Origin: an uncultured Flavobacteriaceae bacterium
Lineage (GTDB): Bacteria > Bacteroidota > Bacteroidia > Flavobacteriales > Flavobacteriaceae
Length of the DNA: 64,000 nt
Assembly (NCBI GenBank): GCA_964595625.1
Contig: CAZQQU010000003.1
Location: forward strand, 40,327 to 104,326
Direction: 5' to 3'
In this document: in pieces, positions 2,035-33,844 of the stretch
Numbering within the stretch: the stretch's first letter is position 1
How the letters are laid out: every line of letters begins with the position of its first letter
The notes under the pieces: generated by a model
What the model was told of the DNA's origin: nothing
What the model saw: the letters and a program-made list of their open reading frames with translations, nothing else
Databases searched by the model: none
Translations under genes and position numbers: made by a program

Positions 2035-2100
2035 AAAGGTTTTTTCAAAATAAAAGCAGTTTTCACATACGGCTTCTTTATGCTCCAAATCATAAAATTA

Positions 2101-8834: not shown

Positions 8835-9269
8835 ATGTTTTCCAAAGCTTGTGAATATGGCATTAAAGCTACTTTGTTTGTGGCGTCCCAATCGTTGCAA
8901 GGTAAGCGTACCATATTACCCGAAATCGCCGTCAAAATTGACTCCCCCGTAGCTTTTACCGCTAAAATTTTACAGCAATTGGCGCGACATAAAGTAATTC
9001 ATTCTTTTAAAGGACCTAATGGTGGCTTTTTTATATTTCCTGAAAGCATGACGTCCTTAAAATTGAAAGACATAGTAACCGCCATTGACGGAGATGCTAT
9101 CGTGACCGAATGTGCTTTGGGTTTAAAAAAATGTGACGAAAACTCGCCTTGCCCGATTCATTATAAGTTTAAATCTATTCGAAAAGAGATAATCGATCTT
9201 TTGGAAAATGTTACCCTTAAAGAACTTTCCGAAAAAATAGAAAAAGGCGATACTGTTTTGAAAATTTAA
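8835..9269 (+). CDS. Rrf2 family transcriptional regulator with Fe-S ligand set (NsrR/IscR-like)
   Basis: The N-terminus MFSKACEYGIKA is typical of Rrf2 proteins. Ligand motif C-x6-C-x5-C-x2-H (CALGLKKCDENSPCPIH). The ATG at 8835 is chosen over the upstream ORF-track start. Confidence 0.8.
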   Translation: MFSKACEYGIKATLFVASQSLQGKRTILPEIAVKIDSPVAFTAKILQQLARHKVIHSFKGPNGGFFIFPESMTSLKLKDIVTAIDGDAIVTECALGLKKCDENSPCPIHYKFKSIRKEIIDLLENVTLKELSEKIEKGDTVLKI

Positions 9270-12648: not shown

Positions 12649-12732
12649 TAAATTCCACACTTTTTTTGTTGTTTCAGAAAATGAGTGGTAAAAGATTTCT
12701 ATTTAGGATAAAAAGGTATTAAATTATTTTTT

Positions 12733-12740
12733 TACCTTTG
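12733..12740 (+). promoter_or_regulatory. Bacteroidota -7 promoter element TACCTTTG for the nadA operon
   Basis: It matches TAnnTTTG and lies about 75 nt upstream of the nadA ATG. Confidence 0.4.
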
Positions 12741-12814
12741 TTCTTCCAACTTTCTTATTCGTTAAAATAGGATAAAAAAAAGGAAGGTGGAGTGACTTCT
12801 GACCAAATTATTAA

Positions 12815-13780
12815 ATGGTTTTTACAGAAGAAATCTATAGGAAAATGGACAGCAAAGTTTATTTTGCGAACGAAATAGCTCGCTTGAAAAAAGAAAAAAA
12901 TGCGGTATTACTGGCGCATTATTATCAGGAAGAAAGCATTCAGGATATAGCTGATTTTGTAGGAGACAGTCTCGAATTAGCCAAAAAAGCCGCACAGACA
13001 GATGCCGATATTATTGTTTTTGCTGGGGTGTATTTTATGGCTGAAACCGCCAAAATTCTCAATCCCGATAAAAAAGTTCTCCTCCCTGACCTGCAGGCCG
13101 GATGCTCCTTAGCCGATGGCTGCAACCCGGGGGATTTTGCTGCATTTAAGCAAAAATATCCCGGACACAAAGTGGTGACTTATATCAATACGAAGGCAGA
13201 AATAAAAGCCCTCAGCGATTACACCTGTACCTCTTCCAACGCCTTGAAGGTAATCGCCTCCATCCCCGAAGACCAACCTATAATTTTTGCTCCGGATAAA
13301 AATTTGGGGAAATACCTCAGTCAAAAAACCGGTCGAAATATGGTGTTGTGGGACGGCTCATGTATCGTTCACGAAGCTTTTTCGATAGAAAAATTAATTA
13401 CGCTGATTCGCCAATACCCAGAAGCAAAAATTGTTGCTCATCCCGAATCAGAGGAACCGATTTTAAAATTGGCGCATTTCATTAGTTCGACTTCCCAAAT
13501 GATACAGTACATACTTCAAAGTGATGCAACAACTTTTGTCGTTGCTACCGAAGCAGGGATTTTACACCAACTCCGACTTAAAACTCCGGGTAAAACGCTT
13601 ATTCCGGCACCGTCTGTTGAAGATAACACTTGTAGTTGCAGTGAATGTGCCTTTATGAAAGTGAATTCACTCCAAAAAGTATATCTCTGCCTGAGAGACG
13701 AGACCCCTGAAATCCAAATCAGTGGTTCCTTGGCTGCTGCTGCCTTAAAACCCATTGAAAAAATGTTGCAAATCTCGTAA
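12815..13780 (+). CDS. nadA: Quinolinate synthase NadA
   Basis: Motifs [15 protein letters not shown], the [11 protein letters not shown] region and the HPE motif, with conserved Cys residues. Confidence 0.9.
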
Positions 13781-13783
13781 CAC

Positions 13784-15244
13784 ATGAAAACAGATGTATT
13801 AGTCATAGGTTCAGGGATTGCCGGCTTGTCTTTTGCCATCAAAATGGCCGAGCGAAGACCCGACATGCATATCAGTATATTTACTAAGGCAGATGCTTTT
13901 GAAACCAATACCAAATACGCTCAAGGAGGAATTGCCGCGGTGATGAACAACGATGTGTACAATGTCGAATCGCATGTACACGACACCCTCATCGCCGGGA
14001 AAGGACTTTGCGACAGCAAAACCGTGAGAATGGTGGTAGAAAAAGCTCCTGAACGATTAAACGAACTCATTCAATGGGGAACAGATTTTGACAAAACTCC
14101 TGACGGGAATTGGCATTACGGATTAGAAGGCGGACATAGCACCGCCCGAATTTTGCATCACAAAGACCAAACCGGAAAAGTGCTGGAAAAAACACTTTTG
14201 AAACGATTAAAATCTCATAAAAATATTGGGCTGCACACGGAATATTTTGCCCTCGATCTCATAGTGGAAAATAACCAGTGTTTTGGAGCATACTTTTTTG
14301 ATAGAAACCAAAAACAAGACATCCCGGTTTTTGCCAAAGCCACCTACCTCTCTACCGGAGGAAGCGGACAAGTTTTTGAAAAAACCACCAATCCCGAAAT
14401 TGCCACGGGAGACGGCGTTGCCATGGCCTACCGCGCCGGTGCGAAAATTAGTCACATGGGGTATTATCAATTTCATCCCACGGCCTTGGCAACCTCACAA
14501 AATTCAGCCGCATTTTTAATCTCAGAAGCTGTTAGGGGCGCCGGTGCCTACCTGATAAACTCTCAGGGGCACCGGTTTATTTTTGATTATGATGGACTCG
14601 GCGAACTGGCTACTCGAGACGACGTTTGTCACGCTATTTTTAGTGAAATGCAAAAAACCAATTCCTCGTATGTATTCTTAGACGCCAGACATTTGGATAA
14701 AAAAACTTTCAAAAATCACTTCCCTCACATTATAAAAAATTGCCGCTTACACGGTTTCGATATCTTAAATGAACCCGTTCCGGTAGCTCCGGCGGCTCAC
14801 TACCAATGCGGGGGAATAGCCGTTAACAATAAATCCGAAACATCGGTAAAAAACTTGTACGTCAACGGCGAATGTGCTTACACCGGACTACACGGTGCCA
14901 ATCGATTGGCGTCAAACTCGCTTTTGGAGGCCGTGGTTTTTGCCCACGAAGCAGCTTGCAAAGTAGGGAAAAAATTGGATGCTCCACACCGCTACCCAAA
15001 CTCGATAACTTCGGTAATCATAACCGAAGAGAAATCAGATTCAGAGACTATTTCGGCACAAAAAAAACAACTTCGAAAGTGGATGTACGATTTTTATTTA
15101 CAAAAAATATTAGGTAAAGATACTTCAGCGATTCGGGATAAAATTGATGAAATGGCTCGTCAAACTGACCCGAAACCGCAGTCGGTTGAAGCTTGCGAAT
15201 TGGCAAATCTGCTTTGTGTAGCCCAACTCATAATTCGGCAGTAA
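13784..15244 (+). CDS. nadB: L-aspartate oxidase NadB
   Basis: N-terminal FAD fold VLVIGSGIAGLS, YAQGGIAA, and the C-terminal GLHGANRLASNSLLE motif. Confidence 0.9.
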   Translation: MKTDVLVIGSGIAGLSFAIKMAERRPDMHISIFTKADAFETNTKYAQGGIAAVMNNDVYNVESHVHDTLIAGKGLCDSKTVRMVVEKAPERLNELIQWGTDFDKTPDGNWHYGLEGGHSTARILHHKDQTGKVLEKTLLKRLKSHKNIGLHTEYFALDLIVENNQCFGAYFFDRNQKQDIPVFAKATYLSTGGSGQVFEKTTNPEIATGDGVAMAYRAGAKISHMGYYQFHPTALATSQNSAAFLISEAVRGAGAYLINSQGHRFIFDYDGLGELATRDDVCHAIFSEMQKTNSSYVFLDARHLDKKTFKNHFPHIIKNCRLHGFDILNEPVPVAPAAHYQCGGIAVNNKSETSVKNLYVNGECAYTGLHGANRLASNSLLEAVVFAHEAACKVGKKLDAPHRYPNSITSVIITEEKSDSETISAQKKQLRKWMYDFYLQKILGKDTSAIRDKIDEMARQTDPKPQSVEACELANLLCVAQLIIRQ

Positions 15245-15247
15245 AGA

Positions 15248-15676
15248 ATGAAGTCTGTACATTACATAGCCATCACTTATATAATTTTAAGCATTTCATA
15301 TTTAGTGCTTTCCTTTGTAATTTATACGGATACAGACACTTATCAGGTAAAATCTCAGGAGATTGATGTTTCGACCGCTTCTCAAGGGCGTTTGGTTTGG
15401 CAAAAATACAACTGCCAGGCTTGTCATCAGTTGTACGGTTTGGGAGGTTTTTTAGGCCCTGATCTGACGAATGTTTCCCAAAAAGGATTTTTTTACGTAG
15501 ATGCTTTTTTAAAAACCGGCGTAAACTCTATGCCCGAATTTTCACTCTCTGAAGAAGAAACCCACCAATTGTTCGAATTTCTCAAATCGGTTGACAACAC
15601 CGGAAACGCCATCCCGGCTACTTACAACACTTTTTGGAACGGAATGATACAACCCGAGCATGAAACCCAACCGTAA
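15248..15676 (+). CDS. Membrane-anchored mono-haem cytochrome c (small subunit of the HCO-like complex)
   Basis: N-terminal TM helix, CQACH haem site and a downstream SMPEF methionine. It starts 3 nt after the nadB stop and overlaps the next gene by 17 nt. Confidence 0.75.
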   Translation: MKSVHYIAITYIILSISYLVLSFVIYTDTDTYQVKSQEIDVSTASQGRLVWQKYNCQACHQLYGLGGFLGPDLTNVSQKGFFYVDAFLKTGVNSMPEFSLSEEETHQLFEFLKSVDNTGNAIPATYNTFWNGMIQPEHETQP

Positions 15677-16985
15677 TTCCATAGGAGCTTTGTTTTTAAA
15701 AACCGCATTGATATTGTTGGTTTTAGGATTGATATTTGGTGCATTGGCCTCTGTCATTTACATAGTGCCGGAATTTTTAAAAAACAATTTTGGTCTTACC
15801 GCTTTAAGACCTTTACATGTTTCATCGGTGGTGTTTTGGATTTTATTGGCTGCTACAGGAAGTATTTATCTGGCGCTCGAAAATATCACTCCAAAACAGT
15901 CGTCAACCCTACTGCAAAAACTCCATTTGATTTTTTGGTGGATGGCGTTAGCGGGAATATTTTATTCCTATTTTACAAAAAACTTCGGGGGGCGCGAATA
16001 TTGGGAATATCCTTCGGTCTATGCCCTTCTCGTCGGAATTGCTTGGGTTTTATTTTTGATTTTATTTATTCAAAAAGTTCGTACACTGCGGCCATGGCCC
16101 GTCTATATCTGGATGTGGATGACCGGAATTGTCTATTTTTTATTCATTTTTATAGAAAATTATTTGTGGGTAATCCCTTGGTTTAGAGAGATTTTTGTAA
16201 AAGACATGGTCATTCAATGGAAAGCAGCCGGAAGTATTGTAGGGGCTTATAATATGTTGGTGTATGGAGTCGCATTTTACCTGATGGAACGCATCAGTAA
16301 ACAGTCGGTTCCCAGTTATAACAAATGGGCTTTTGCGCTGTTTTTTCTGAGTTTTTTCAATATGCTTTTCAACTGGGGACACCATCTCTATCTCGTTCCG
16401 GCGAAGCCGTATATACATTACATCGGTTATGCGGTGAGTATGACCGAGTGGGTTTTCTTTATAAAAATTCTTTGGAACTGGCACAAACAAGTCACCGAAG
16501 CCGAAACTTATTACCATTATTTCCCGTACCGGTTTTTGTTGGCATCCAACTTCTGGTTGTTTTTTAACCTCACCTTGGCTTTGTTTATGTCGATACCGGC
16601 CATAAACCTCTATATGCACGGCACGCACTTTATCACGGCGCATGCCATGGGTACTACCATCGGAATTAACACTATGATATTGTTGGCTGCTGCTTTTGAA
16701 CAATTGTTGCCTAAGCAAAGCTCTTTCTCAAAGGGAAGTAAAAGGACTTTCTGGGTAATCCAACTAAGTTTGTTGTTGTTCTTGGTGTTTTTACTGTTGA
16801 TGGGAATTCACAAAAGCATTTGGTTTTTTCAAGACCCACAACCTCCCTTTTCCGAAATGATGGAAAAAATGAAATTTTGGTCTGCCGGATTTATGATTTC
16901 GGGTATCACTTTGGCTATATCAGTAGTATTAATGGTAACTTTGTTTTTTAGGAAAAAGTTTGCTCAGGGCAATCCAAACCATTAA
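15660..16985 (+). CDS. Divergent heme-copper oxidase superfamily subunit I-like protein (cbb3/NOR-related) with non-canonical active-site ligands
   Basis: It aligns without gaps to the CcoN in this window over helices VI-VII and with a single one-residue gap as far as helix X. LRPLH (H53), WGHH (H241/H242) and TAH (H328) are retained. The helix-VI CuB His aligns to G191, the cross-link Tyr to M235 and the second helix-X His to M330. Confidence 0.75.
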   Translation: MKPNRNSIGALFLKTALILLVLGLIFGALASVIYIVPEFLKNNFGLTALRPLHVSSVVFWILLAATGSIYLALENITPKQSSTLLQKLHLIFWWMALAGIFYSYFTKNFGGREYWEYPSVYALLVGIAWVLFLILFIQKVRTLRPWPVYIWMWMTGIVYFLFIFIENYLWVIPWFREIFVKDMVIQWKAAGSIVGAYNMLVYGVAFYLMERISKQSVPSYNKWAFALFFLSFFNMLFNWGHHLYLVPAKPYIHYIGYAVSMTEWVFFIKILWNWHKQVTEAETYYHYFPYRFLLASNFWLFFNLTLALFMSIPAINLYMHGTHFITAHAMGTTIGINTMILLAAAFEQLLPKQSSFSKGSKRTFWVIQLSLLLFLVFLLLMGIHKSIWFFQDPQPPFSEMMEKMKFWSAGFMISGITLAISVVLMVTLFFRKKFAQGNPNH

Positions 16986-16991
16986 TCCATC

Positions 16992-18206
16992 ATGCTAAAA
17001 ACAGCTGCTTTAACAGCATTGGGATATTTAGCCATAGCGTCCCTACTGGGATTGGCGCTTCGTTATACTGCCCTAGCAGAGCTACCGATAACGTATCGGT
17101 ATTTTGTACATGGCCACTCGCATATTGCTATGCTGGGATGGATTTATATTGCTCTGACGACTCTTATTTACAAGGCCTATCTTCACACTGAGTCCGTACC
17201 TTTTTCTTATAAAATACTTTTTGTTTGTACCCAAATTACCCTATTAGGTATGTTGATTGCCTTTCCGCTGCAGGGATATGCTTTATTTTCCATACTCTTT
17301 TCGAGTCTGTTTTTAATCGCCAGCTACGGATTTATATACTTTTTTTTCAAAAATGTTTACCCGGAAAATAAAAACACTTTCTCTTATCATTTGATCAAAC
17401 AGGCCTTGGGGTTTTTGGGCTTGTCAAGTATAGGCGCTTGGTCTTTGGGCATTATCATGACTACCGCCGGAAATACTTCGATTTATTACAAATTGGCGAT
17501 TTATTTCTTTTTACATTTTCAATACAACGGATGGATGCTTCTCGCTGTTTTGGGCTTGTTTTTTTATGTTTTGGAGAAAAAAAATATTGTTTTTTCTAAA
17601 GAAAAAACCCTCTCTTTAAGACGTTGGATAGCCGGCAGTGTGTATCTGACTTATTTGTTGTCGGCTTTGTTTGCCCAGCCCCATGAAAGTATTTATGCTT
17701 TAGCCGGCATAGGCGTTCTTTTACAACTCATGGCTTTTGCCAAAGTTTGGAAAATGGTTCGGTCAAAACACAACGCTATTCAACAAGTTTTTCCTCAAAA
17801 AATATTTTGGATACTCGCTTTATCGGGACTATTGTGGGTGGTAAAACTACTGTTGCAAACACTTTCTGTCTTCCCGTATTTTGCCGATTTGGCTTATCAA
17901 TTCCCCGATTTTATCATCGGATATCTGCACTGGGTTTTTCTTGGAATTATCAGTTTGGCTCTCTTCGGGTTAACAACATCTTTTGATTTATTGACTCTAT
18001 CACAAAAACTTATGTCTTTGTTTTTAATAGGTTTTGCGGCTACAGAATTATTGATATTCTACCGTGCCATGGCTCAATGGCTGGATATGCCTTTGCCATC
18101 ACAATTTCTATTCGCCTTATTTTTAGCAAGTTTGGTATTATTTATCGGAATTGCGGGCTTGCTTTTGAAGAATATTTCGATTTTATTTTTTGATAAAACA
18201 AAATAA
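16992..18206 (+). CDS. Polytopic (about 12 TM) membrane protein of unknown function, co-operonic with the HCO-like gene
   Basis: 404 aa and hydrophobic throughout. It has three His-containing helix motifs (HGHSHIAMLGW, HFQYNGW, YLHWVFLG). Any NnrS-like resemblance is only impressionistic. Confidence 0.5.
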   Translation: MLKTAALTALGYLAIASLLGLALRYTALAELPITYRYFVHGHSHIAMLGWIYIALTTLIYKAYLHTESVPFSYKILFVCTQITLLGMLIAFPLQGYALFSILFSSLFLIASYGFIYFFFKNVYPENKNTFSYHLIKQALGFLGLSSIGAWSLGIIMTTAGNTSIYYKLAIYFFLHFQYNGWMLLAVLGLFFYVLEKKNIVFSKEKTLSLRRWIAGSVYLTYLLSALFAQPHESIYALAGIGVLLQLMAFAKVWKMVRSKHNAIQQVFPQKIFWILALSGLLWVVKLLLQTLSVFPYFADLAYQFPDFIIGYLHWVFLGIISLALFGLTTSFDLLTLSQKLMSLFLIGFAATELLIFYRAMAQWLDMPLPSQFLFALFLASLVLFIGIAGLLLKNISILFFDKTK

Positions 18207-18218
18207 TCTCAACTCACT

Positions 18219-18602
18219 TTACAAGCGACTTTCATAAATGCTGAGGTATAGGTGTGTAGCCATTTTTCGGGCATTGTTTTTGGCGCGTTCGGCCAATTCA
18301 CCTTCAAACAACTCATCTATGGTTTGAATCCACAAATTCAGCCATTCGCCAAAATGCTCCTGCTGAATGATATTAGAAAAATGCGAATCGACCTGTATGT
18401 GCGCCAAACGCGGATTTCCTTTGTACTTGGCTTTAAAAAACAAATTGCTCTCCCAAAAATCTGTCAGTTTTTCTAAATGTTCGTCCCAATTGTGAATGAT
18501 TTCGTTAAAAAACCGACCAATAAATTCGCTCGTTCTTACTTTTCCGTAAAAAGTAGAAACCAGTAAATACACATCGTCCCGCGATTCAATTTGTTTTTTC
18601 AT
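18219..18602 (-). CDS. Truncated haemoglobin, group III-like (Ctb-like)
   Basis: 127 aa. The pattern FYGKVR...FF...W.EH..KL.DFW...Y.GNP...H...F..WL.LW matches my memory of C. jejuni Ctb-type globins. Confidence 0.7.
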   Translation of the reverse strand: MKKQIESRDDVYLLVSTFYGKVRTSEFIGRFFNEIIHNWDEHLEKLTDFWESNLFFKAKYKGNPRLAHIQVDSHFSNIIQQEHFGEWLNLWIQTIDELFEGELAERAKNNARKMATHLYLSIYESRL

Positions 18603-18883
18603 ACTATTAAATGAAAAATAATGATTCCTAAACTCACAAAAATACTAAGCAATAACGAGTTAAACACAAATCCGGGTTTCATTTGTGCCAACACCGAAGC
18701 GTTGTACCACATAGCTACCGAAACCACCATCACCAATTGAATAAGTTCGGAAATTCCCGTGCCGCTTTGTAAAACAAACATAGCGGCAATAGAACCAATA
18801 CAGCTCGAGGCAATAATACCCAAGGTAATGTTCAGATAAAACATTTGCTGAAAATCGGAGCGTAATTTTTTATACAATCTCAT
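18599..18883 (-). CDS. Small three-TM membrane protein, overlapping the globin start (ATGA)
   Basis: 94 aa and hydrophobic, with a 4-nt overlap with the downstream globin gene. Confidence 0.5.
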   Translation of the reverse strand: MRLYKKLRSDFQQMFYLNITLGIIASSCIGSIAAMFVLQSGTGISELIQLVMVVSVAMWYNASVLAQMKPGFVFNSLLLSIFVSLGIIIFHLIV

Positions 18884-19064
18884 CTGTTTTATATTTTAAT
18901 TATTATCAAAGATTTCTAGCCAAAACACATTTTCAGGTGTTTGGACAATATGTTAATCCGGCATTTCATGAAATGATTTTTTCAGTAATAAAATTATTTC
19001 TCCTCAAAAAATTTATTTATGACCTGAATCATAATCCTCTGCAGGGTTATTTGGGATTTAAGAT

Positions 19065-19076
19065 TGACATTTGTCA
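19065..19076 (+). promoter_or_regulatory. FNR/FixK-type box TGACATTTGTCA upstream of ccoI
   Basis: 14-mer TTGACATTTGTCAT. The dyad centre is 36.5 bp from the terminal G of the -7-like element CACTTTTG (19100-19107). Confidence 0.55.
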
Positions 19077-19134
19077 TTGTTTACCCGATTATTCCATTGC
19101 ACTTTTGTACCATAGTATCGGATACTGAAAATAT

Positions 19135-21522
19135 ATGGCAAAGGAGGTATCTTGTTATCACTGCGGAAACAGTTGTAACGAAGGCGAGATCGTTACTGAC
19201 GGAAAGAATTTTTGTTGCAACGGTTGTAAAACCGTTTACGAAATTTTTGCCGCCAGCGACCTTACTTGTTATTACGATTTGCAACAATCTCCGGGGGCTA
19301 TTCCCAAGGAAATAAAAGGGAAATACGATTTTTTAGACAACCCGGATATCGCCTCCAAAATCCTTGAGTTTGACGATGATAAACTGCAAATTGTTTTACT
19401 CTACATACCTCATATTCACTGTAGTTCGTGTATTTGGATTTTAGAAAATCTAAACAAACTCAACCCGGAAATTACCTCCTCGCAAGTAAATTTTCCAAAA
19501 AAAATCGTTCGTATACAGTTTAAAAAACAGGGAGTTTCTCTCAAAGAAGTAGTGCTTTTACTGTGTAGCATCGGCTATGAACCCTATATCAGTTTGGAGA
19601 ATTACGAAGGAAAACCCAGGGTCACCGACCGCAGTTTGCTATACAAACTAGCCACTGCGGGATTTGCCTTTGGAAATATCATGTTTTTATCCTTTCCCGA
19701 ATATTTTGACTTCAACGATCTTTGGCTTGAACAATACAAACATTTGTTCCGTTGGATGATGTTTGCTTTTTCGGTGCCGGTGTTGTTATACTCTGCCTCG
19801 GGTTATTTTGTTTCGGCTTATTTAGGGTTGAAAAGGGGCTTTTTAAACATCGATGTGCCTTTGGCTTTGGGAATACTGGTTTTGTTTGTTCGCAGTGTGG
19901 TAGAAATTTCTTTCGACTGGGGTTCGGGGTTTTTTGACAGTTTTTCGGGGTTGGTATTTTTTATTTTGTTAGGAAAATATTTCCAACAACGCACCTATAA
20001 TTTTCTTTCATTTGAAAGGGATTACAAATCGTATTTCCCCATCGCTGTAACTCGCATTCGCGACGGTATAGAAGAATCGGCGCCGGTGTACAACATTCAA
20101 AAGGGCGATAGATTACTGATTAGAAACGAAGAACTCATCCCGGTGGACGGTATTTTGATTAAAGGAAACGGGAGGGTGGATTACAGTTTTGTCACCGGAG
20201 AATCCGTTCCTGTACGAAAAGAATCAGGTGATAAAATATTTGCCGGAGGCAAACAAATAGCAGGCCTCATAGAGATGGAAAGCTTGAAAGCGGTATCACA
20301 AAGCTACCTTACCCAACTATGGAGCAACGATGTTTTTAACAAAGACAAAGAACACGCATTTGTGGGGTTGACCAACCGAGTGAGCAAATATTTTACCATC
20401 GTCATTCTTATCATAGCTTTTGCTTCGTTGGGAATTTGGACGTATTTAGGTAATTTCCCGGTAGCCATTCAGGCATTTACAGCGGTTTTAATCATTGCCT
20501 GCCCCTGTGCCTTGGCCATGTCAGTGCCGTTTACCATGGGAAATATGCTTCGTATTTTCGGGCGACTCAAATTTTATCTAAAAAACGCTAATGTCATTGA
20601 GAAACTGGCAGCGATTGACACTATCATTTTTGACAAAACCGGAACGATTACCACCGGCACCAAAAGCAATATCAGTTATGATGGTGTGCCGCTCACTCAC
20701 GAAGAAGCTGCGTTGCTCAAATCTACGTTGCGAACCTCAAACCACCCGCTCAGTCGTTCGCTTTACGCTATTTTAAAAGAAAACGACATTCTTACCTTAG
20801 ACGAATACCAAGAGCATGTGGGGCAGGGTTTACAAGCTCAAGCCAACGGAAACAGCATTAAAATAGGTTCGTCTGATTTTGTAAATAAAAAGTCGGCTCC
20901 CTCTGAAAAAGTATACCACGAAACCTCCGTGCATATCAGCACCAACGATACTTACAAAGGAAAATTTGTTTTCAAAAATCAATACCGCGAAAATGTAAAA
21001 GAAACTTTTGAAATTTTGGGTAAAAACTATCATTTGGCCATACTATCGGGAGACAACGAAGGTGAAAAAATATACCTTCGCGAAATTTTACCCCCACAAA
21101 CTGAACTGGCTTTCAACCAAAAACCAGACGACAAATTAAAGCATATTGAACATCTGCAGAATTTCGGTCATCGAGTAATGATGGTAGGAGACGGGCTAAA
21201 CGACGCCGGAGCTTTACAACAAAGCGATGTGGGAATAGCTATTTCGGAGAATGTCAATGTTTTCTCTCCCGCCTGCGACGGAATTTTGGATGCGTCCAAG
21301 TTTAAAGAGCTTCCTCATTACATCCGAGCGTCCAATACTGCCATTAAAATTGTCAAAGCGAGTATTACCATCTCATTTTTATACAATATAGTGGGCCTGT
21401 ACTTTGCGGTTACCGGACAATTAGCCCCGGTAGTAGCTGCCATTATCATGCCCATGAGTTCGATTAGCGTAGTAGCATTTACGACTGTAATGACTAACTT
21501 AACAGGAAGAAAATTGAGATAA
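19135..21522 (+). CDS. ccoI: Copper-translocating P1B-type ATPase for cbb3 assembly (CcoI/FixI)
   Basis: N-terminal CYHCGNSC...CCNGC motif, transmembrane CPC, DKTGTIT phosphorylation site and the GDGLNDAGAL hinge. Confidence 0.9.
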   Translation: MAKEVSCYHCGNSCNEGEIVTDGKNFCCNGCKTVYEIFAASDLTCYYDLQQSPGAIPKEIKGKYDFLDNPDIASKILEFDDDKLQIVLLYIPHIHCSSCIWILENLNKLNPEITSSQVNFPKKIVRIQFKKQGVSLKEVVLLLCSIGYEPYISLENYEGKPRVTDRSLLYKLATAGFAFGNIMFLSFPEYFDFNDLWLEQYKHLFRWMMFAFSVPVLLYSASGYFVSAYLGLKRGFLNIDVPLALGILVLFVRSVVEISFDWGSGFFDSFSGLVFFILLGKYFQQRTYNFLSFERDYKSYFPIAVTRIRDGIEESAPVYNIQKGDRLLIRNEELIPVDGILIKGNGRVDYSFVTGESVPVRKESGDKIFAGGKQIAGLIEMESLKAVSQSYLTQLWSNDVFNKDKEHAFVGLTNRVSKYFTIVILIIAFASLGIWTYLGNFPVAIQAFTAVLIIACPCALAMSVPFTMGNMLRIFGRLKFYLKNANVIEKLAAIDTIIFDKTGTITTGTKSNISYDGVPLTHEEAALLKSTLRTSNHPLSRSLYAILKENDILTLDEYQEHVGQGLQAQANGNSIKIGSSDFVNKKSAPSEKVYHETSVHISTNDTYKGKFVFKNQYRENVKETFEILGKNYHLAILSGDNEGEKIYLREILPPQTELAFNQKPDDKLKHIEHLQNFGHRVMMVGDGLNDAGALQQSDVGIAISENVNVFSPACDGILDASKFKELPHYIRASNTAIKIVKASITISFLYNIVGLYFAVTGQLAPVVAAIIMPMSSISVVAFTTVMTNLTGRKLR

Positions 21523-21563
21523 AAAATTAGGTCGATTTTAGACTGTCTCTAAATAGACAAATA

Positions 21564-21575
21564 TGACTAATGTCA
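21564..21575 (+). promoter_or_regulatory. FNR/FixK-type box TGACTAATGTCA upstream of ccoS-ccoNO
   Basis: 14-mer ATGACTAATGTCAT with perfect arms. The dyad centre is 36.5 bp from the terminal G of TATTTTTG (21599-21606). Confidence 0.55.
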
Positions 21576-21623
21576 TTTTTTGACGTAGCGTCGAAAAGTA
21601 TTTTTGATAGCAAATTCAGTCGC

Positions 21624-21833
21624 ATGAGCGTAATATACTTAACCTTAGCAATAAGTACCTTGGTAGCTATTGTCTTTTTCTTCATTTTTATTTTAAGTGT
21701 GAAAAAAGGACAGTATGACGACACCTATACCCCATCGGTAAGGATGCTTTTTGAAGACGAACTCGTAAAGGACAAAAATAAAATCGATATACAAGAAACC
21801 TCAACTAAAAAGTCCACTAATAAAGAAAACTAA
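21624..21833 (+). CDS. ccoS: cbb3 oxidase maturation protein CcoS
   Basis: A single TM segment followed by KKGQYDD, the CcoS signature. The internal ATG at 21624 is preferred over the ORF-track start. Confidence 0.75.
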   Translation: MSVIYLTLAISTLVAIVFFFIFILSVKKGQYDDTYTPSVRMLFEDELVKDKNKIDIQETSTKKSTNKEN

Positions 21834-21835
21834 TT

Positions 21836-24040
21836 ATGGAAGTACAGCAGTTTTATTATGATAACAAAATCGTAAAGAAGTTTATTTACGCAACGATACT
21901 CTGGGGCGTCGTGGGAATGGCCGTGGGATTGTTGCTTGCTTTTATGTTTTTATTCCCCAATCTTACCGAAGGTATCTCTTGGCTTAGCTTTGGACGGCTA
22001 AGACCCTTACATACCAATGCGGTGATTTTTGCTTTTGTGGGGAACGCTATTTTTGCAGGGGTCTATTACTCATTACAAAGGCTCTTAAAAACCCGGATGT
22101 ATAGTAACTTTTTGAGTAATTTCAACTTCTGGGGATGGCAACTTATCATTGTTTCGGCAGCACTCACACTACCTTTGGGGTTTACCACTTCAAAAGAATA
22201 TGCTGAACTCGAATGGCCTATCGATATTGCTATTGCATTAGTTTGGGTGGCTTTTGGGGTGAATATGATTGGTACCATCTTACGAAGAAGACAACGGCAT
22301 TTGTACGTGGCTATCTGGTTTTATTTAGCCACTTTTGTGACTGTAGCTGTACTCCATATTTTCAACAGCTTAGCGCTTCCGGTAGATTTCTTAAAAAGTT
22401 ATTCGGTATATGCCGGAGTACAAGACGCATTGGTGCAATGGTGGTACGGACATAATGCCGTGGCATTTTTCTTGACCACACCCTTTTTGGGTTTGATGTA
22501 CTACTATGTGCCCAAAATTGCTGATCGCCCCATATACTCCTACCGCTTGTCCATTGTACACTTTTGGTCATTAATCTTTATCTACATTTGGGCAGGTCCT
22601 CACCACTTGTTATACACTGCTTTACCCACCTGGGCACAAAGCTTGGGGGTAACCTTCTCGATCATGTTGATAGCTCCTTCTTGGGGTGGTATGATCAACG
22701 GACTTTTAACCTTAAGAGGTGCTTGGGACAAAGTACGTACCGATCCCACTCTCAAATTTATGGTGGTAGCTATCACCGGTTACGGTATGGCCACTTTTGA
22801 AGGCCCGATGTTATCGCTTAAAAATGTCAATGCAATTGCCCACTTTACCGACTGGATTATTGCACACGTACACGTAGGTGCCTTGGCTTGGAACGGATTT
22901 TTAACCTTCGGTATGGTCTATTGGTTGGTGCCCAAACTTTTTAAAACCAAATTATACTCCACTGCCTTAGCCAATACCCACTTCTGGTTAGGAACCCTCG
23001 GAATTGTTTTATACGCTCTGCCGATGTACGTAGCCGGCGTGGTTCAGGCTTCTATGTGGAAACAATTCAACCCCGACGGAACTTTGGTTTACGGTAACTT
23101 TATGGAAACCGTTACCGAAATTATCCCGATGTACTGGATGCGTGCCATAGGCGGTAGCTTATACATCTTGGGTATGTTTATATTACTCTACAACATTATC
23201 AAAACCATCAAAAGCGGTAGTGCTGTCACCGACGAGTTGGCTGAAGCCGCTCCTCTCGAAAAAGTTTCTAAAAGACGTGTTTCCGGTGAGGGGTATCACT
23301 CTTGGTTAGAAAGAAGACCGGTACAACTTACCATTTTTGCAACCATTGCCATCTTAATCGGTGGAATTGTGCAAATTGTTCCGACCTTAGTCGTCAAATC
23401 AAACATTCCTACTATCACGAGTGTGCATCCTTATACACCCTTGGAGCTCGAAGGAAGAGACCTCTACATCCGGGAAGGCTGTGTGGGCTGTCACTCACAA
23501 ATGGTTCGGCCTTTTAGGAGTGAAACCGAGCGGTATAATGGCGAGTATGCCAAAGCCGGAGAGTTTGTTTACGACCACCCGTTTTTGTGGGGTAGTAAAC
23601 GTACCGGACCCGACTTACTTCGGGTGGGTGGGAAATACTCCGACAGTTGGCATTTTAACCACTTTTACGACCCGCAGAGTACCTCGACCAACTCTATTAT
23701 GCCAAGCTATAAATGGCTAATTACCAACAAATTAAACAAGTCCAAAACCGAAAATAAAATGCAGATAATGCGTAAGTTGGGCGTGCCTTATTCGGAAGAA
23801 GACATCAACCGAGCACAAGAATGGATGCTTGAACAAGGGTCGCAAATAGAGCAAAACCTTATGGGAGACCCCGAATTTACTCGGGTATATGAAGCCGAAA
23901 AACAGTACAACCTTGAGAATGGTTTGGAATTTATAGAAATGAAGAACCGTGAAGTGGTTGCGTTAATCGCTTACTTACAACGTCTTGGAACCGATATCAA
24001 AATAAAAAATCAAGAGGAAACAACCTCACAAAACCAATAA
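21836..24040 (+). CDS. ccoN: cbb3-type cytochrome c oxidase, fused subunits I and II (CcoN-CcoO)
   Basis: The CcoN part carries LRPLHT, WWYGHNAV, GPHH and AHVHVG. The C-terminal CcoO part carries the CVGCH haem site. This fusion is usual in Bacteroidota. Confidence 0.9.
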   Translation: MEVQQFYYDNKIVKKFIYATILWGVVGMAVGLLLAFMFLFPNLTEGISWLSFGRLRPLHTNAVIFAFVGNAIFAGVYYSLQRLLKTRMYSNFLSNFNFWGWQLIIVSAALTLPLGFTTSKEYAELEWPIDIAIALVWVAFGVNMIGTILRRRQRHLYVAIWFYLATFVTVAVLHIFNSLALPVDFLKSYSVYAGVQDALVQWWYGHNAVAFFLTTPFLGLMYYYVPKIADRPIYSYRLSIVHFWSLIFIYIWAGPHHLLYTALPTWAQSLGVTFSIMLIAPSWGGMINGLLTLRGAWDKVRTDPTLKFMVVAITGYGMATFEGPMLSLKNVNAIAHFTDWIIAHVHVGALAWNGFLTFGMVYWLVPKLFKTKLYSTALANTHFWLGTLGIVLYALPMYVAGVVQASMWKQFNPDGTLVYGNFMETVTEIIPMYWMRAIGGSLYILGMFILLYNIIKTIKSGSAVTDELAEAAPLEKVSKRRVSGEGYHSWLERRPVQLTIFATIAILIGGIVQIVPTLVVKSNIPTITSVHPYTPLELEGRDLYIREGCVGCHSQMVRPFRSETERYNGEYAKAGEFVYDHPFLWGSKRTGPDLLRVGGKYSDSWHFNHFYDPQSTSTNSIMPSYKWLITNKLNKSKTENKMQIMRKLGVPYSEEDINRAQEWMLEQGSQIEQNLMGDPEFTRVYEAEKQYNLENGLEFIEMKNREVVALIAYLQRLGTDIKIKNQEETTSQNQ

Positions 24041-24043
24041 GTT

Positions 24044-24235
24044 ATGTTGAAATTTGTAAAAGGACATATGGAAAGTATTGATGGTGTAGAGGTTTACCCC
24101 ATCATCTCTCTGCTGATTTTCTTTATCTTCTTTGCCCTACTTTTTATTTGGGTATTGACAGCTAAGAAAAGTTATATTGAAAAGGTTAGTAACATTCCTC
24201 TAGAAAACGAGGAAGAAAATACCGGCGCATTATGA
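24044..24235 (+). CDS. Small single-TM cbb3 subunit (CcoQ-like)
   Basis: 63 aa with one TM segment, lying between ccoNO and ccoP and overlapping ccoP by 4 nt. Confidence 0.55.
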   Translation: MLKFVKGHMESIDGVEVYPIISLLIFFIFFALLFIWVLTAKKSYIEKVSNIPLENEEENTGAL

Positions 24236-25191: not shown

Positions 25192-25209
25192 AATTCAATC
25201 AACAAGGCG

Positions 25210-25253
25210 CTAAGACATCAGGATTTGACAAGAGAAAAATTCGGATGTCTTAG
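25210..25253 (+). terminator. Long-loop hairpin between ccoP and ccoG
   Basis: 10-bp stem CTAAGACATC / GATGTCTTAG followed by TGATTTTT. The 24-nt loop makes its function uncertain. Confidence 0.35.
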
Positions 25254-25269
25254 TGATTTTTAAAAAGTT

Positions 25270-26685: not shown

Positions 26686-26782
26686 GCCCCTCCCTAATCC
26701 TCTCCAAAGGGGAGGGAAAGGGTTGATAAAAATAGATTGTTTAATTATAAAAATCCCCCTTTGGGGGAGAAAGGGGTTTGAA
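26686..26782 (+). repeat. GC-rich hairpin/direct-repeat island between ccoG and fixH (REP-like)
   Basis: CCCTCCC (26688-26694) pairs with GGGAGGG (26710-26716). CCCCCTTTGGGGG lies at 26755-26767. The G-rich unit GGGGAG(G)GAAAGGG(G)TT occurs twice, about 54 nt apart. Confidence 0.4.
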
Positions 26783-33840: not shown

Positions 33841-33844
33841 TATT

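What the first reader, a model, noticed from the sequence alone, without database searches (positions are those of the whole stretch)
15248..18206. Cytochrome c + heme-copper-oxidase-like subunit with three canonical ligand positions substituted, plus a 12-TM partner
The 441-aa protein is clearly an HCO subunit-I homologue. It aligns without gaps to the CcoN encoded at 21836 over helices VI-VII. From the QW of helix VI to the HH of helix VII is 56 residues in both proteins. From HH to the helix-X AH is 87 versus 88 residues, so the alignment needs only one single-residue gap to reach helix X.

Retained: H53 (LRPLH), H241/H242 (WGHH) and H328 (TAH).

Substituted:

- The helix-VI CuB/FeB histidine (WWYGHNAV in CcoN) aligns to QWKAAGSIV, i.e. 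G191.
- The C-family cross-link tyrosine position is M235.
- The second helix-X histidine (AHVH), which ligates the low-spin haem, is M330 (AHAM).

So the binuclear site would have at most two His. The low-spin haem would be His/Met rather than bis-His. No NOR-type helix-VI glutamates are visible.

The protein is translationally coupled to a NorC/CcoO-like membrane-anchored mono-haem cytochrome c (17-nt overlap). It is followed after 6 nt by an uncharacterised 404-aa polytopic protein with three His-bearing helices. A truncated haemoglobin operon converges on it.

This does not match the ligand sets I know for A/B/C oxidases, cNOR/qNOR or the proposed eNOR/bNOR/sNOR/gNOR/nNOR families. It could be a new catalytic or sensory derivative of the HCO fold acting on NO, N2O or O2.
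Basis: partly seen in the sequence, partly recalled or inferred. Interest (0 to 1): 0.8.

Follow-up and report, generated by a model that had tools for sequence, protein, structure and literature searches.

The report
NorCB-like enzyme missing FeB ligands
A conserved membrane haem-protein pair, sister to bacterial nitric-oxide reductase but lacking the residues that hold its catalytic iron, sits in a low-oxygen/nitrogen-oxide gene island beside a second, unrecognised oxidase-fold protein. Its chemistry is untested and may be a different way of reducing NO or N2O.

Summary
Window 15248-18206 encodes three proteins:

- **NorC-like cytochrome c:** membrane-anchored, mono-haem.
- **NorB-like HCO subunit (441 aa):** it keeps H53, H241/H242 and H328. 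It has no helix-VI His or Glu and no cross-link Tyr. Met330 replaces the second axial His of haem b.
- **404-aa 12-helix protein ("p404").**

These are family traits under selection, not decay. The family scores nearest to cNOR.

The context is a low-O2/N-oxide island: nosDFY, RIC, an Fe-S Rrf2 regulator, Crp/Fnr regulators, a group III truncated globin and cbb3 oxidase. In two related genomes the pair sits directly upstream of nirK-nirV-sco1, the position norB holds in a Tenacibaculum cluster, and without norQD. In two others it follows norCBQD.

New here: p404 is predicted to have the HCO subunit-I fold. It also travels with qNOR and cNOR clusters.

My best reading is an FeB-free, cytochrome-c-fed N-oxide reductase, most likely acting on NO. 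Murali et al. (2024) list an uncharacterised cNOR-related family as a putative N2O reductase. This is probably that family, but I could not check membership.

The parts
15248..15676 (+). NorC-like membrane-anchored mono-haem cytochrome c (CQACH, Met in NSMPEF). Start codon lies 4 nt after the nadB stop.
   Evidence: Pfam Cytochrome_CBB3. Best PDB hits are NorC 3o0r_C (E 7.9e-11) and 4xyd_B. 29% identical to the NorC of a true cNOR in L020. Paired with the HCO gene in 46/46 loci that have room for it, usually overlapping it.
15660..16985 (+). NorB-like HCO subunit I (441 aa). Haem b ligands are H53/M330 and the haem b3 ligand is H328. H241/H242 are kept. No helix-VI His (position 190/191), no E211 or E215 equivalents (V194, N198). 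Family-specific K188 and E263.
   Evidence: Pfam COX1 at 91 bits. PDB phmmer finds only cNOR NorB. Ligand map. AF2 model pTM 0.84; Foldseek gives CcoN TM 0.83 and NorB TM 0.77-0.79. Family HMM is nearest to cNOR.
16992..18206 (+). p404: a 12-helix protein with predicted HCO subunit-I fold. Conserved His on helices 2 (H40/H42/H44), 6 (H175) and 10 (H313). No helix-7 His pair.
   Evidence: No Pfam or NCBIfam hit. Family conservation. AF2 pLDDT 90.7, pTM 0.91. The top 17 Foldseek PDB hits are all HCO subunit I, TM up to 0.77. Linked to the pair in 16 loci, in two gene orders. Also sits beside qNOR and beside a nirK/cNOR cluster.
18219..18602 (-). Group III truncated haemoglobin (Ctb-like), convergent on p404.
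   Evidence: PDB 2ig3_A, E 6.4e-10. Pfam Bac_globin is below threshold. Homologues occur near the pair in L014, L040 and L042.
18599..18883 (-). 94-aa membrane protein, first gene of the globin operon. Function unknown.
   Evidence: ORF. No family hit.
12815..15244 (+). nadA (12815-13780) and nadB (13784-15244), apparently co-transcribed with the pair.
   Evidence: Pfam NadA and FAD_binding_2 on identical contigs. nadB lies within 8 kb of the pair in 18 loci and nadA in 17; in most of these both sit directly upstream on the same strand.
12733..12740 (+). TACCTTTG, matching the Bacteroidetes -7 promoter element (TAnnTTTG), 75 nt upstream of nadA. Likely promoter of nadA-nadB-norC'-norB'-p404.
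   Evidence: Sequence. A conserved counterpart (TATCTTTG) is seen upstream of nadA in L001-L003, with close variants in L029 and L041. The consensus itself is from my own knowledge.
8835..9269 (+). Rrf2-family regulator with a C-x7-C-x5-C-x2-H motif (Fe-S type, NsrR/IscR-like).
   Evidence: Pfam Rrf2. A homologue lies within 8 kb of the pair in 22 loci.
1..2034 (+). End of a nos (N2O reductase) cluster: nosD C-terminus (1-558), nosF (552-1259), nosY (1252-2034).
   Evidence: Pfam NosD, ABC_tran and ABC2. Homologous to nosD/F/Y that follow nosZ in L019 and L022.
2144..2875 (+). RIC/YtfE-type di-iron protein (ScdA_N + hemerythrin).
   Evidence: Pfam. Found in 10 related loci.
2079..2094 (+). Crp/Fnr-type box TATGCTCCAAATCATA, upstream of RIC.
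   Evidence: The same palindrome lies upstream of the cyt c gene, p404, RIC and the nos cytochrome c gene in related loci.
19018..19033 (+). Crp/Fnr-type box TATGACCTGAATCATA, between the globin operon and ccoI.
   Evidence: sequence.
19135..27226 (+). cbb3 oxidase cluster: ccoI, ccoS, fused ccoNO (21836-24040), ccoQ, ccoP, ccoG, ccoH.
32602..34879 (+). PAS histidine kinase plus a response-regulator/cNMP-binding/HTH_Crp fusion. A Crp-type box precedes it at 32521-32536.
   Evidence: The same pair, with Usp proteins flanking it, lies just upstream of RIC-qNOR-p404 in Salinimicrobium.

Best explanation
**What it is.** The two overlapping genes encode a NorC/NorB-type complex from a small, conserved family that is sister to cNOR. 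The family is mostly Bacteroidota, with relatives elsewhere.

**What the sequence shows.**
- The large subunit keeps both haem sites. Haem b is ligated by His53 and Met330, and haem b3 by His328.
- It keeps the glutamates of the cNOR Ca2+ site (E113/E116).
- It keeps the cNOR E280 and S277 equivalents (E263, S260).
- It keeps the helix-VII His pair.
- It has lost the helix-VI His and both helix-VI Glu that bind and serve FeB.
- It has acquired an invariant Lys188, which covaries with Glu263.

**What I infer.**
- Electrons flow from periplasmic cytochrome c to the NorC-like haem c, then to haem b (potential raised by the Met ligand), then to haem b3.
- A small N-oxide is reduced in a pocket formed by H241, H242, K188 and E263. 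This pocket has no canonical FeB, and hence no need for the NorQ/NorD iron-insertion system.
- The genes belong to a low-O2/N-oxide regulon.
- The most likely substrate is NO, for detoxification or the NirK-to-NosZ link. I put about 0.35 on NO specifically and about 0.5 on 'catalytic N-oxide reductase' in general.
- p404 is an accessory HCO-fold membrane protein of NO-reductase clusters, analogous in role to NnrS. It is not a dedicated subunit.
For: **Homology.**
- NorB is the only PDB sequence hit for the large subunit.
- NorC is the best hit for the small subunit.
- The family HMM scores cNOR at 89.9 and 65.4 bits, CcoN at 55.2 and qNOR at 20.0.
- The predicted fold matches CcoN and NorB at TM 0.77-0.83.

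**Ligand map and selection.**
- M330 in 47/47; K188, E263, H241 and H242 in 47/47; E113 and E116 conserved.
- Across 82 sequences, including 81 cluster representatives, K/R188 goes with E263 in 63 of 65. H or Q at 188 goes with A or G at 263 in 17 of 17.

**Electron input.** The cyt c partner is present in 46/46 loci. Other lineages carry C-terminal fusions to CcoO-like plus further CxxCH domains.

**Context in the window.** nosDFY, RIC, Rrf2, Crp/Fnr, PAS kinase with RR-Crp fusion, a group III trHb and cbb3.

**Context in related loci.**
- L006 and L029: nadAB-cytc-HCO-NirK-NirV-SCO1-hemerythrin-p404, with no NorQD.
- Tenacibaculum has cNOR NorB in that slot, with NorQD present.
- L019 and L022: the pair lies beside nosZ-nosDFY.

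**Shared regulation.** A Crp/Fnr-type palindrome lies upstream of the cyt c gene, p404, RIC and the nos cytochrome c gene. Of 42 exact hits, 20 fall in the 8.5% of sequence that is intergenic.
Against: - No biochemical data exist for any member.
- From my own knowledge of the cNOR literature (Adelroth group work on NorQD), FeB-depleted cNOR is inactive. A haem-only site is therefore not obviously competent for N-N bond formation.
- In L020 and L008 the pair sits in tandem with a complete norCBQD set. In those genomes it is not simply 'the' NOR.
- The residue at the lost-His position is variable (N, A, Y or T), so it cannot be a substitute ligand.
- The AF2 model has low confidence exactly around H241-259 and 317-325. 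I had no coordinates to check the geometry of K188, E263 and the His pair.
- In the window there is no Crp box upstream of nadA. Regulation of this particular copy is therefore only inferred.
Confidence: 0.5

Rival explanations
1. It is a NosZ-independent, membrane-bound N2O reductase. This is the role Murali et al. (2024) proposed for the uncharacterised HCO family closely related to cNOR, citing the sulfide- and acetylene-insensitive membrane N2O reductase of Flexibacter canadensis.
For: - PMC11214002 places an 'N2O red' family between the C-family and cNOR. The family here scores between them, nearest cNOR, and is dominated by Bacteroidota, the phylum of F. canadensis.
- The tandem arrangement norCB-ric-norQD-...-cytc-HCO in L020 and L008 would suit consecutive steps.
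Against: - The window and at least eight related loci carry nos genes (nosZ in L019 and L022, nosDFY or part of that set elsewhere) within a few kb of the pair. An alternative N2O reductase would be redundant there.
- In L006 and L029, NirK and nos genes are present and the pair occupies the NOR position.
- The NosZ of L019 and L022 has a lipoprotein-type signal. That could by itself explain a membrane-bound N2O reductase (my inference).
- No haem-based N2O reductase is known.
- I could not verify that the window protein belongs to the paper's sequence set.
Confidence: 0.15
2. It is not a reductase. It is a haem-based NO/O2-binding, sensing or electron-relay module that has kept the NorCB scaffold, for example feeding or draining electrons for NosZ/NirK or buffering NO.
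For: - Loss of the FeB ligand set.
- Co-location with regulators (Rrf2, Crp/Fnr, PAS kinase) and with NO-binding or repair proteins (trHb, RIC, hemerythrin).
- Coexistence with a complete cNOR.
Against: - Strict retention of the haem b3 ligand, the His pair and E263/S260. The last two I take to be cNOR proton-path residues (my own knowledge).
- Retention of the Ca2+-site glutamates and of a dedicated electron-input cytochrome, including multi-haem fusions. This is the pattern of a working redox enzyme.
- There is no output or signalling domain.
Confidence: 0.15
3. It reduces O2 or H2O2, acting as a micro-oxic scavenger or peroxidase-like oxidase expressed together with cbb3.
For: - It lies next to the cbb3 cluster.
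- It sits in an island of O2-independent back-up enzymes: nadAB, class II RNR here and class III RNR in related loci.
- Crp/Fnr-type boxes are present.
Against: - It has no cross-link Tyr (M/L235) and no third CuB His. PMC11214002 treats the Tyr cofactor as required for O2 reduction within the superfamily.
- The recurrent neighbours are N-oxide genes rather than oxidase assembly genes.
Confidence: 0.08
4. It is a decaying or non-functional paralogue of cNOR/CcoN.
For: Three canonical ligand positions are substituted.
Against: - Intact ORFs in 46 genome loci from several Bacteroidota orders plus a Parabeggiatoa, at 29-80% identity.
- About 60 invariant residues, including the substituted positions.
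- 169 cluster representatives at E <= 1e-30.
- Conserved translational coupling to the cytochrome c gene.
Confidence: 0.02

Closest known systems
cNOR (NorCB), e.g. P. aeruginosa 3o0r
   Same: - Two subunits: a membrane-anchored mono-haem NorC-like cytochrome and a 12-TM NorB-like subunit.
- H60, H258, H259 and H347 equivalents are kept.
- The Ca2+-site glutamates E135/E138 are kept, as are E280, S277, H339 and the T330 equivalent (Ser here).
- No cross-link Tyr.
   Different: - FeB ligand H207 is lost (N/A/Y/T).
- E211 becomes Val and E215 becomes Asn.
- Haem b ligand H349 becomes Met.
- Invariant K188 is new.
- No NorQ/NorD next to it, except where a true cNOR is also present.
- Only about 21% identity.
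'N2O red' HCO family of Murali, Hemp et al., PNAS 2024 (PMC11214002)
   Same: - Described as an uncharacterised HCO family closely related to cNOR, in the C-family branch, lacking the active-site Tyr.
- Tied to a Bacteroidetes organism.
- All of this fits the present family.
   Different: - Membership could not be verified. The supplementary files (leaf lists, alignment) are not held, and the main text does not describe the family's active site.
- The N2O-reductase proposal is untested. It fits poorly with the frequent co-location with nosZ/nosDFY seen here.
nNOR (Murali et al. 2024)
   Same: The low-spin haem is ligated by His and Met.
   Different: - nNOR is related to the B-family and has a CuA-type subunit II.
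- It keeps the full cNOR-type FeB ligand set.
- The family here is on the C/cNOR branch, has a NorC-like subunit and has lost that ligand set.
NOD, putative NO dismutase (Ettwig et al. 2012, PMC3413370)
   Same: A NOR-derived enzyme in which one FeB His is replaced (by Asn) and a catalytic Glu is lost.
   Different: - NOD derives from qNOR and lacks any electron-donor site.
- The family here derives from the cNOR side and always keeps a cytochrome c electron-input subunit.
cbb3 oxidase CcoN (window 21836-24040)
   Same: - Same fold (TM about 0.83).
- Shared helix-II, helix-VII and helix-X His positions.
- Shared Ca2+-site Glu.
   Different: - No CuB helix-VI His.
- No cross-link Tyr (M235).
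- Met replaces the second helix-X His.
- E263 is cNOR-like, where CcoN has Leu.
NnrS (for p404)
   Same: - About 400 aa with 12 helices and several conserved His.
- A membrane protein encoded in NO-responsive or denitrification clusters.
- A few p404 homologues are labelled 'NnrS family' by UniRef.
   Different: - Pfam NnrS (PF05940) does not hit any of the 26 members scanned.
- The only weak family hits are COX1 and DUF2871.
- The predicted fold is HCO subunit I.

Membership tests
cNOR (NorCB) | NorC-type membrane-anchored mono-haem cytochrome c subunit encoded immediately upstream | tested here: met
   Best PDB hits are NorC 3o0r_C (E 7.9e-11) and 4xyd_B. CxxCH and Met are conserved. 17-nt overlap with the large-subunit gene.
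cNOR (NorCB) | Large subunit is an HCO subunit-I homologue closest to NorB | tested here: met
cNOR (NorCB) | Six-His signature (H60, H207, H258, H259, H347, H349) | tested here: not met
   Only four of six are present. Position 190/191 has no His, and H349 is Met in 47/47.
cNOR (NorCB) | FeB-associated glutamates E211 and E215 | tested here: not met
   V194 and N198. E280 is retained as E263.
cNOR (NorCB) | Ca2+ site bridging the haem propionates (NorB E135; NorC G71 and Y73) | tested here: met
   E113 and E116 are invariant. G66 is present. Y73 is Phe in the window and Tyr in most members.
cNOR (NorCB) | NorQ/NorD accessory genes for FeB insertion | tested here: not met
   None in the window. 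None beside the pair in L006 or L029. Present only where a true norCB is also present or implied (L020; a partial norD in L008) and in the Tenacibaculum cNOR cluster.
cNOR (NorCB) | NO reductase activity | not testable with these tools
   Needs biochemistry.
C-family (cbb3) oxygen reductase | Three-His CuB site plus the helix-VII cross-link Tyr | tested here: not met
   No helix-VI His. Tyr250 of the window CcoN aligns to M235, which is Leu in most members.
'N2O red' family of Murali et al. 2024 | HCO family on the C-family branch, closely related to cNOR, lacking the active-site Tyr | tested here: met
   HMM scores. No Tyr at the cross-link position. Description in the paper.
'N2O red' family of Murali et al. 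2024 | Recovered by the authors' family HMM or present in their leaf list | not testable with these tools
   No supplementary files are held. The BBA 2022 companion paper is not held.
nNOR | B-family-related, CuA-type subunit II, cNOR-like FeB ligands, His/Met low-spin haem | tested here: not met
   Only the His/Met feature is shared. The subunit II here is NorC-like and the FeB ligands are missing.
HCO superfamily (for p404) | 12-helix subunit-I fold | tested here: met
   AF2 pLDDT 90.7, pTM 0.91. The top 17 Foldseek PDB hits are all HCO subunit I, with TM up to 0.77.
HCO superfamily (for p404) | Sequence-profile membership (Pfam COX1) and the six-His ligand set | tested here: not met
   No Pfam hit for the window protein. 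Of 26 relatives, 2 hit COX1 weakly (best E 1.2e-5, below the curated cut-off). hhalign against the NorB-like family gives probability 0.4%. There is no helix-7 His pair.
NnrS (for p404) | Match to Pfam PF05940 | tested here: not met
   0 of 26 members at E <= 1.
Group III truncated haemoglobin (18219-18602) | Sequence similarity to a solved group III trHb | tested here: met
   2ig3_A, E 6.4e-10 over residues 5-123. Pfam Bac_globin scores 17.9 bits, below its cut-off of 21.

The most novel reading that the evidence does not exclude
**The reading.** The family catalyses N-oxide chemistry at a haem b3 site that has no canonical non-haem metal. The pocket is built from His241, His242, Lys188 and Glu263. 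Two versions are possible:
- a NosZ-independent N2O reductase;
- an FeB-free, NorQD-independent NO reductase.

**Possible partner.** It may work with p404, a second, previously unrecognised HCO-fold protein family that accompanies NO reductases of three different types.

**What it would mean.** Either version would be a new catalytic solution within the haem-copper superfamily. It would also be a missing term in N2O budgets for Bacteroidota.
Probability: 0.2. Interest if true: 0.9.

Novelty: new variant of a known kind. Interest (0 to 1): 0.62.

Why it matters
**N2O accounting.** NO reductases are the biological source of N2O, and NosZ is the only established sink. Bacteroidota with clade II nosZ are counted as 'non-denitrifying N2O reducers' in environmental surveys. 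Those surveys annotate this protein either as 'cbb3 oxidase subunit I' or as 'nitric oxide reductase subunit B'. If the family reduces NO or N2O, current gene-based N2O budgets misassign these organisms.

**Mechanism.** A NorB scaffold that has discarded FeB, E211 and E215 while staying under strong selection is a natural experiment on what the binuclear centre is needed for.

**The partner protein.** The HCO-fold p404 family has more than 2,500 homologues in the profile search. Almost all carry no name or are annotated 'hypothetical'. This adds a further uncharacterised branch to one of the best-studied enzyme superfamilies.

**Testability.** Cultivable hosts exist, so the question can be addressed directly.

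Tried and rejected
**Checks that ruled something out**
1. A His supplied from nearby to complete the site. No His occurs in 182-200 in any of 47 members. Beyond the four ligand His, the only other (near-)invariant His are H320/H323, in the periplasmic IX-X loop, and H286, in a cytoplasmic loop. I could not test 3D geometry because model coordinates are not exposed.
2. L047 (Parabeggiatoa) as a canonical cNOR reference. This was wrong: it is a true family member. The canonical sequence in my first alignment was L020:1545-2894.
3. My recollection that NorC carries a CxxCHSQxxRP motif and that the window cytochrome is therefore not NorC-like. The PDB search rejected this.
4. HCO-p404 fusion proteins as Rosetta-stone evidence. 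The roughly 800-aa relatives are fusions to c-type cytochrome domains, not to p404.

**Searches that gave no signal**
5. Sequence-level homology of p404 to the NorB-like family (hhalign, hmmsearch --max) and to PDB profiles gave nothing. Only the predicted structure showed the fold.
6. Sigma-70 promoter and terminator scans of 12500-19200 were at chance level.
7. A Crp-type box upstream of nadA in the window was not found.

**Literature searches**
8. Searches for a characterised Bacteroidota HCO N2O reductase, or for this gene pair in nos-cluster papers, found nothing beyond PMC11214002.
9. Confirming identity with the Murali 'N2O red' family failed. The supplements and the BBA 2022 paper are not held.

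Full report
**1. What is in the sequence**

Window 15248-18206 holds three tightly packed plus-strand ORFs:
- a 142-aa cytochrome c (15248-15676);
- a 441-aa protein (15660-16985, overlapping the first by 17 nt);
- a 404-aa polytopic protein (16992-18206, 6-nt gap).

The cytochrome c gene starts 4 nt after the stop of nadB (13784-15244), and nadB follows nadA (12815-13780). A two-gene operon converges from the minus strand: a 94-aa membrane protein and a 127-aa globin (18219-18883). Identical copies of the whole arrangement exist on at least three independent metagenome contigs, so it is not an assembly artefact.

**2. The ligand observation is correct**

The 441-aa protein matches Pfam COX1 at 91 bits, but no NCBIfam model. 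A phmmer search of all PDB sequences finds only the cNOR NorB chains 4xyd_A and 3o0r_B.

I checked the ligand positions with three alignments:
- the HMMER alignment to NorB;
- a MAFFT alignment that happened to include a genuine cNOR from locus L020;
- an L-INS-i alignment with P. aeruginosa NorB, a qNOR and the window's own CcoN.

| P. aeruginosa NorB | Window protein |
|---|---|
| H60 | H53 |
| E135 / E138 | E113 / E116 |
| H258 / H259 | H241 / H242 |
| S277 | S260 |
| E280 | E263 |
| H339 | H320 |
| H347 | H328 |
| H349 | M330 |
| E211 | V194 |
| E215 | N198 |

The FeB/CuB His of helix VI falls at position 190 in the cNOR register. No His exists anywhere in 182-200 in any member. The C-family cross-link Tyr (Y250 of the window CcoN) aligns to M235.

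**3. It is a family trait under selection**

- A protein search found more than 1,298 homologues. Where a source names them, the label is either 'cbb3-type cytochrome c oxidase subunit I' or 'nitric oxide reductase subunit B'.
- A scan of one genome per species returned 47 loci. They cover Flavobacteriaceae (including Planktosalinus lacus), Chitinophagaceae (Sediminibacterium), Chryseobacterium, Saprospiraceae, Cytophagales and one Parabeggiatoa.
- All 47 family members (46 from the loci plus the window) have M330, H53, H241/H242, H328, K188, N198 and E263. Nearly all have G191 and S192. Position 190 is N, A, Y or T.
- An exhaustive HMM search of 1.84 billion cluster representatives found only 702 hits at E <= 1e-3 and 169 at E <= 1e-30. 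The family is small and well delimited.
- Among 82 full-length sequences, K or R at 188 goes with E263 in 63 of 65. A sister clade has His (or Gln) at 188, Ala or Gly at 263, and usually a third His after the HH pair, in 17 of 17. This covariation suggests that residue 188 and residue 263 lie together in the active-site pocket. That is an inference; I had no coordinates.

A decaying paralogue is excluded.

**4. Relationship to known HCO families**

- The family HMM scores the L020 cNOR at 89.9 bits, P. aeruginosa NorB at 65.4, the window CcoN at 55.2 and a qNOR at 20.0.
- The AF2 model (pTM 0.84, pLDDT 79, weak around 241-259 and 317-325) superposes on CcoN at TM 0.82-0.83 and on NorB at 0.77-0.79.
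- The small subunit's best PDB hit is NorC (3o0r_C, E 7.9e-11). It is 29% identical to the NorC of L020.
- Retention of E280, S277, H339 and the Ca2+-site glutamates marks the large subunit as a cNOR-type protein rather than an oxidase.

Other lineages carry roughly 800-aa versions fused at the C-terminus to a CcoO-like domain plus two further CxxCH motifs. Electron input through c-type haem is therefore a constant of the family.

**5. Genomic context**

The window is a low-O2/N-oxide island. In order it contains:
- nosD (C-terminal part), nosF and nosY (1-2034);
- a RIC/YtfE-type protein (2144-2875);
- a class II RNR (6910-8760);
- an Fe-S-type Rrf2 regulator (8835-9269);
- a Crp/Fnr regulator (11023-11655);
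- nadAB, then the NorC-like/NorB-like pair and p404;
- a group III truncated haemoglobin (PDB 2ig3, E 6.4e-10);
- the cbb3 cluster ccoISNOQPGH (19135-27226);
- another Crp/Fnr regulator (29322-29915);
- a PAS kinase with a response-regulator/Crp fusion (32602-34879).

Recurrent neighbours across the 47 loci:

| Neighbour | Loci |
|---|---|
| Rrf2 regulator | 22 |
| beta-eliminating lyase | 19 |
| nadB | 18 |
| nadA | 17 |
| p404 | 16 |
| unknown 600-aa protein | 12 |
| PTPS | 11 |
| hemerythrin | 10 |
| RIC | 10 |
| nosY | 8 |

The most informative loci:
- **L006 and L029.** The order is nadA-nadB-cytc-HCO-NirK(cyt c fusion)-NirV-SCO1-hemerythrin-x-p404, with no NorQ or NorD.
- **Tenacibaculum (L050).** A homologous cluster reads cNOR NorB-NirK-NirV-SCO1-NorQ-NorD-NorE. 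The pair in L006/L029 therefore occupies the norCB slot.
- **L019.** The pair follows cyt c-nosZ-x-nosD-nosF-nosY on the same strand.
- **L022.** The operon Crp-p404-cytc-HCO diverges from the nos operon.
- **L020.** The order is Rrf2-norC-norB-ric-norQ-norD-lyase-cytc-HCO. L008 begins with a partial norD directly upstream of the pair. The family can therefore coexist in tandem with a true cNOR.

**6. Regulation**

A Crp/Fnr-type palindrome, TATGAT-N4-ATCATA, recurs in related loci. Of 42 exact TGAT-N4-ATCA hits, 20 lie in the 8.5% of sequence that is intergenic. They sit upstream of:
- the cyt c gene (L024, L036, L040, L042);
- p404 (L011, L022, L027, L045);
- the first gene of longer operons that contain the pair (L010, L014);
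- RIC and the nos cytochrome c gene.

In the window, one-mismatch copies lie upstream of RIC (2079-2094), between the globin operon and ccoI (19018-19033), and upstream of the PAS kinase (32521-32536). None lies upstream of nadA, and the total count in the window is not above chance.

Upstream of nadA there is a Bacteroidetes-type -7 box (TACCTTTG, 12733-12740) inside a palindrome, with close counterparts in the related Flavobacteriaceae loci L001-L003, L029 and L041.

The recurrent nadAB linkage has a plausible explanation from established knowledge. Many Bacteroidetes make quinolinate by the O2-dependent kynurenine route, so nadAB would be the O2-independent back-up, much as class II and III RNR are. 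This is inference, not a test.

**7. The 404-aa protein**

- It has no Pfam or NCBIfam match, and no profile-level similarity to the NorB-like family or to PDB sequences.
- Its family has more than 2,500 homologues in the profile search.
- It conserves H40/H42/H44 on helix 2, H175 in LHFQYNGW on helix 6 and H313 on helix 10.
- The AF2 model is confident (pLDDT 90.7, pTM 0.91). Its top 17 Foldseek PDB hits are all HCO subunit I: CcoN, NorB, qNOR and COX1, with TM up to 0.77.
- Two of 26 relatives hit Pfam COX1 weakly.

It is therefore a second, very divergent HCO-fold protein. It keeps a His on each of the three pseudo-symmetric ligand helices (II, VI, X) but lacks the helix-VII pair.

Its linkage to the pair holds in two different gene orders. 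It lies downstream in Flavobacteriaceae. It lies immediately upstream in L011, L022, L026, L027 and L045, overlapping the cyt c gene by 4 nt in four of these. It also lies next to RIC-qNOR in Salinimicrobium and next to Rrf2 and a nirK/cNOR cluster in Tenacibaculum. In Aquimarina it follows only a Fur-type regulator.

I read it as a general accessory of NO-reductase clusters, NnrS-like in role, rather than a dedicated subunit. Pfam NnrS does not match it.

**8. Mechanism and rivals**

*Shown:* the subunit homologies, the retained and lost residues, the conservation and the gene context.

*Inferred:*
- Electrons pass from haem c to haem b (His/Met) to haem b3.
- The distal pocket of H241, H242, K188 and E263 has no canonical FeB, which fits the absence of NorQ/NorD.
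- The substrate is a small N-oxide.

I favour NO for three reasons. The pair takes the norCB position beside nirK. It occurs in apparently non-denitrifying aerobes such as Chryseobacterium, where detoxification is the usual role of a NOR. And nosZ is usually present nearby, which would make a second N2O reductase redundant.

Against this, FeB-less cNOR is reported to be inactive (my own knowledge), and the pair coexists with cNOR in two loci.

The N2O-reductase proposal of Murali et al. remains possible. So do a non-catalytic haem module and an O2/H2O2 reductase, though the latter is disfavoured by the missing Tyr and CuB His.

**9. Novelty**

PMC11214002 lists 12 HCO families, including an uncharacterised 'N2O red' family 'closely related to cNOR' (25 NCBI genomes, 293 GTDB genomes). 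It gives no active-site description in the main text. Phylogenetic position, the lack of the Tyr and the Bacteroidetes link all fit the present family. The supplements are not held, so membership is unverified; I put it at about 0.7.

No characterisation of any member was found.

I therefore rate the finding as a new variant of a known kind. It is probably already catalogued but functionally open. Three elements appear to be new: the HCO-fold p404 family, the K188/E263 covariation and the nirK/nos/NorQD context.

Noticed in passing
window 16992-18206; L049 8001-9221; L050 8001-9224: The 'hypothetical' 404-aa protein family is predicted with high confidence to have the HCO subunit-I fold, although sequence profiles do not detect this. 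It sits beside qNOR, beside a cNOR/nirK cluster and beside the NorB-like pair. It may be an unrecognised branch of the superfamily and a general NO-cluster accessory.
   Followed up: yes
window 12815-15244; L001-L007, L012, L013, L016, L017, L025, L029, L031, L041, L044: nadA-nadB lie directly upstream of the cytochrome c/HCO pair, often in one operon, across several Bacteroidota lineages. Other recurrent neighbours are a beta-eliminating lyase, proline dehydrogenase, PTPS and, in L019, a tryptophan-2,3-dioxygenase-like gene. One possible explanation is an O2-independent NAD-synthesis back-up within a hypoxia regulon; this was not tested.
   Followed up: partly
L010, L011, L014, L022, L024, L027, L036, L040, L042, L045 intergenic regions; window 2079-2094, 19018-19033, 32521-32536: A Crp/Fnr-type palindrome, TATGAT-N4-ATCATA, lies upstream of the cyt c gene, p404, RIC, the nos cytochrome c gene and a Crp gene. 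This suggests one regulon. The window copies each have one mismatch, and their total number is not above chance.
   Followed up: partly
proteins P0386, P0391, P0396, P0397, P0404-P0433: A sister clade of the family has His instead of Lys at position 188, usually a third His after the HH pair (GHHH), and Ala or Gly instead of Glu263. It still has Met330. This covariation points to residue 188 lying in the active site.
   Followed up: partly
proteins P0310, P0314, P0341 (about 790-800 aa): High-GC relatives fuse the NorB-like domain at the C-terminus to a CcoO-like haem c domain plus two more CxxCH motifs. One of them, P0310, has Val instead of Met at position 330.
   Followed up: partly
L020 390-9323: A single same-strand array reads Rrf2-norC-norB(cNOR)-RIC-norQ-norD-lyase-cytc-NorB-like. 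A canonical cNOR and the variant therefore occur in tandem in one Chitinophagaceae MAG. L008 shows a partial norD directly upstream of the pair.
   Followed up: partly
L051 274-1566 (-); L010 4-879; L016 15511-16803: A further 430-aa membrane protein has a weak COX1 hit and an HAHIGLLGW motif resembling p404 helix 2 (hhalign probability 35%). It lies next to FeS_assembly_P, DUF1858/DUF2249 and RIC genes. It may be a third divergent HCO-like family in the same islands.
   Followed up: partly
L019 723-2702; L022 2919-4907 (-): The clade II-type NosZ proteins next to the pair begin with a lipoprotein-like signal (…LYSC, …TSGC). A lipid-anchored NosZ could by itself account for a membrane-bound N2O reductase in Bacteroidetes.
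   Followed up: no
L009 4916-6721 and homologues in 12 further loci: A conserved protein of about 600 aa with no Pfam match (N-terminal FHIPVMG(L/I)G(F/Y)(S/T)IDTP) is often the first gene of the operon that contains nadAB and the pair. In L010 and L014 it is preceded by the Crp-type box.
   Followed up: no
window 6910-9269; L051 15849-19333; L014 12868-15504: The Fe-S-type Rrf2 regulator lies next to an O2-independent ribonucleotide reductase. This is class II in the window and in Flavobacteriaceae loci, and class III NrdDG in others.
   Followed up: no
window 32602-35767; L049 1372-4602: The same regulatory trio occurs in the window and, in Salinimicrobium, immediately upstream of RIC-qNOR-p404. 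It consists of a PAS histidine kinase, a response-regulator/cNMP-binding/HTH_Crp fusion and a Usp protein.
   Followed up: no
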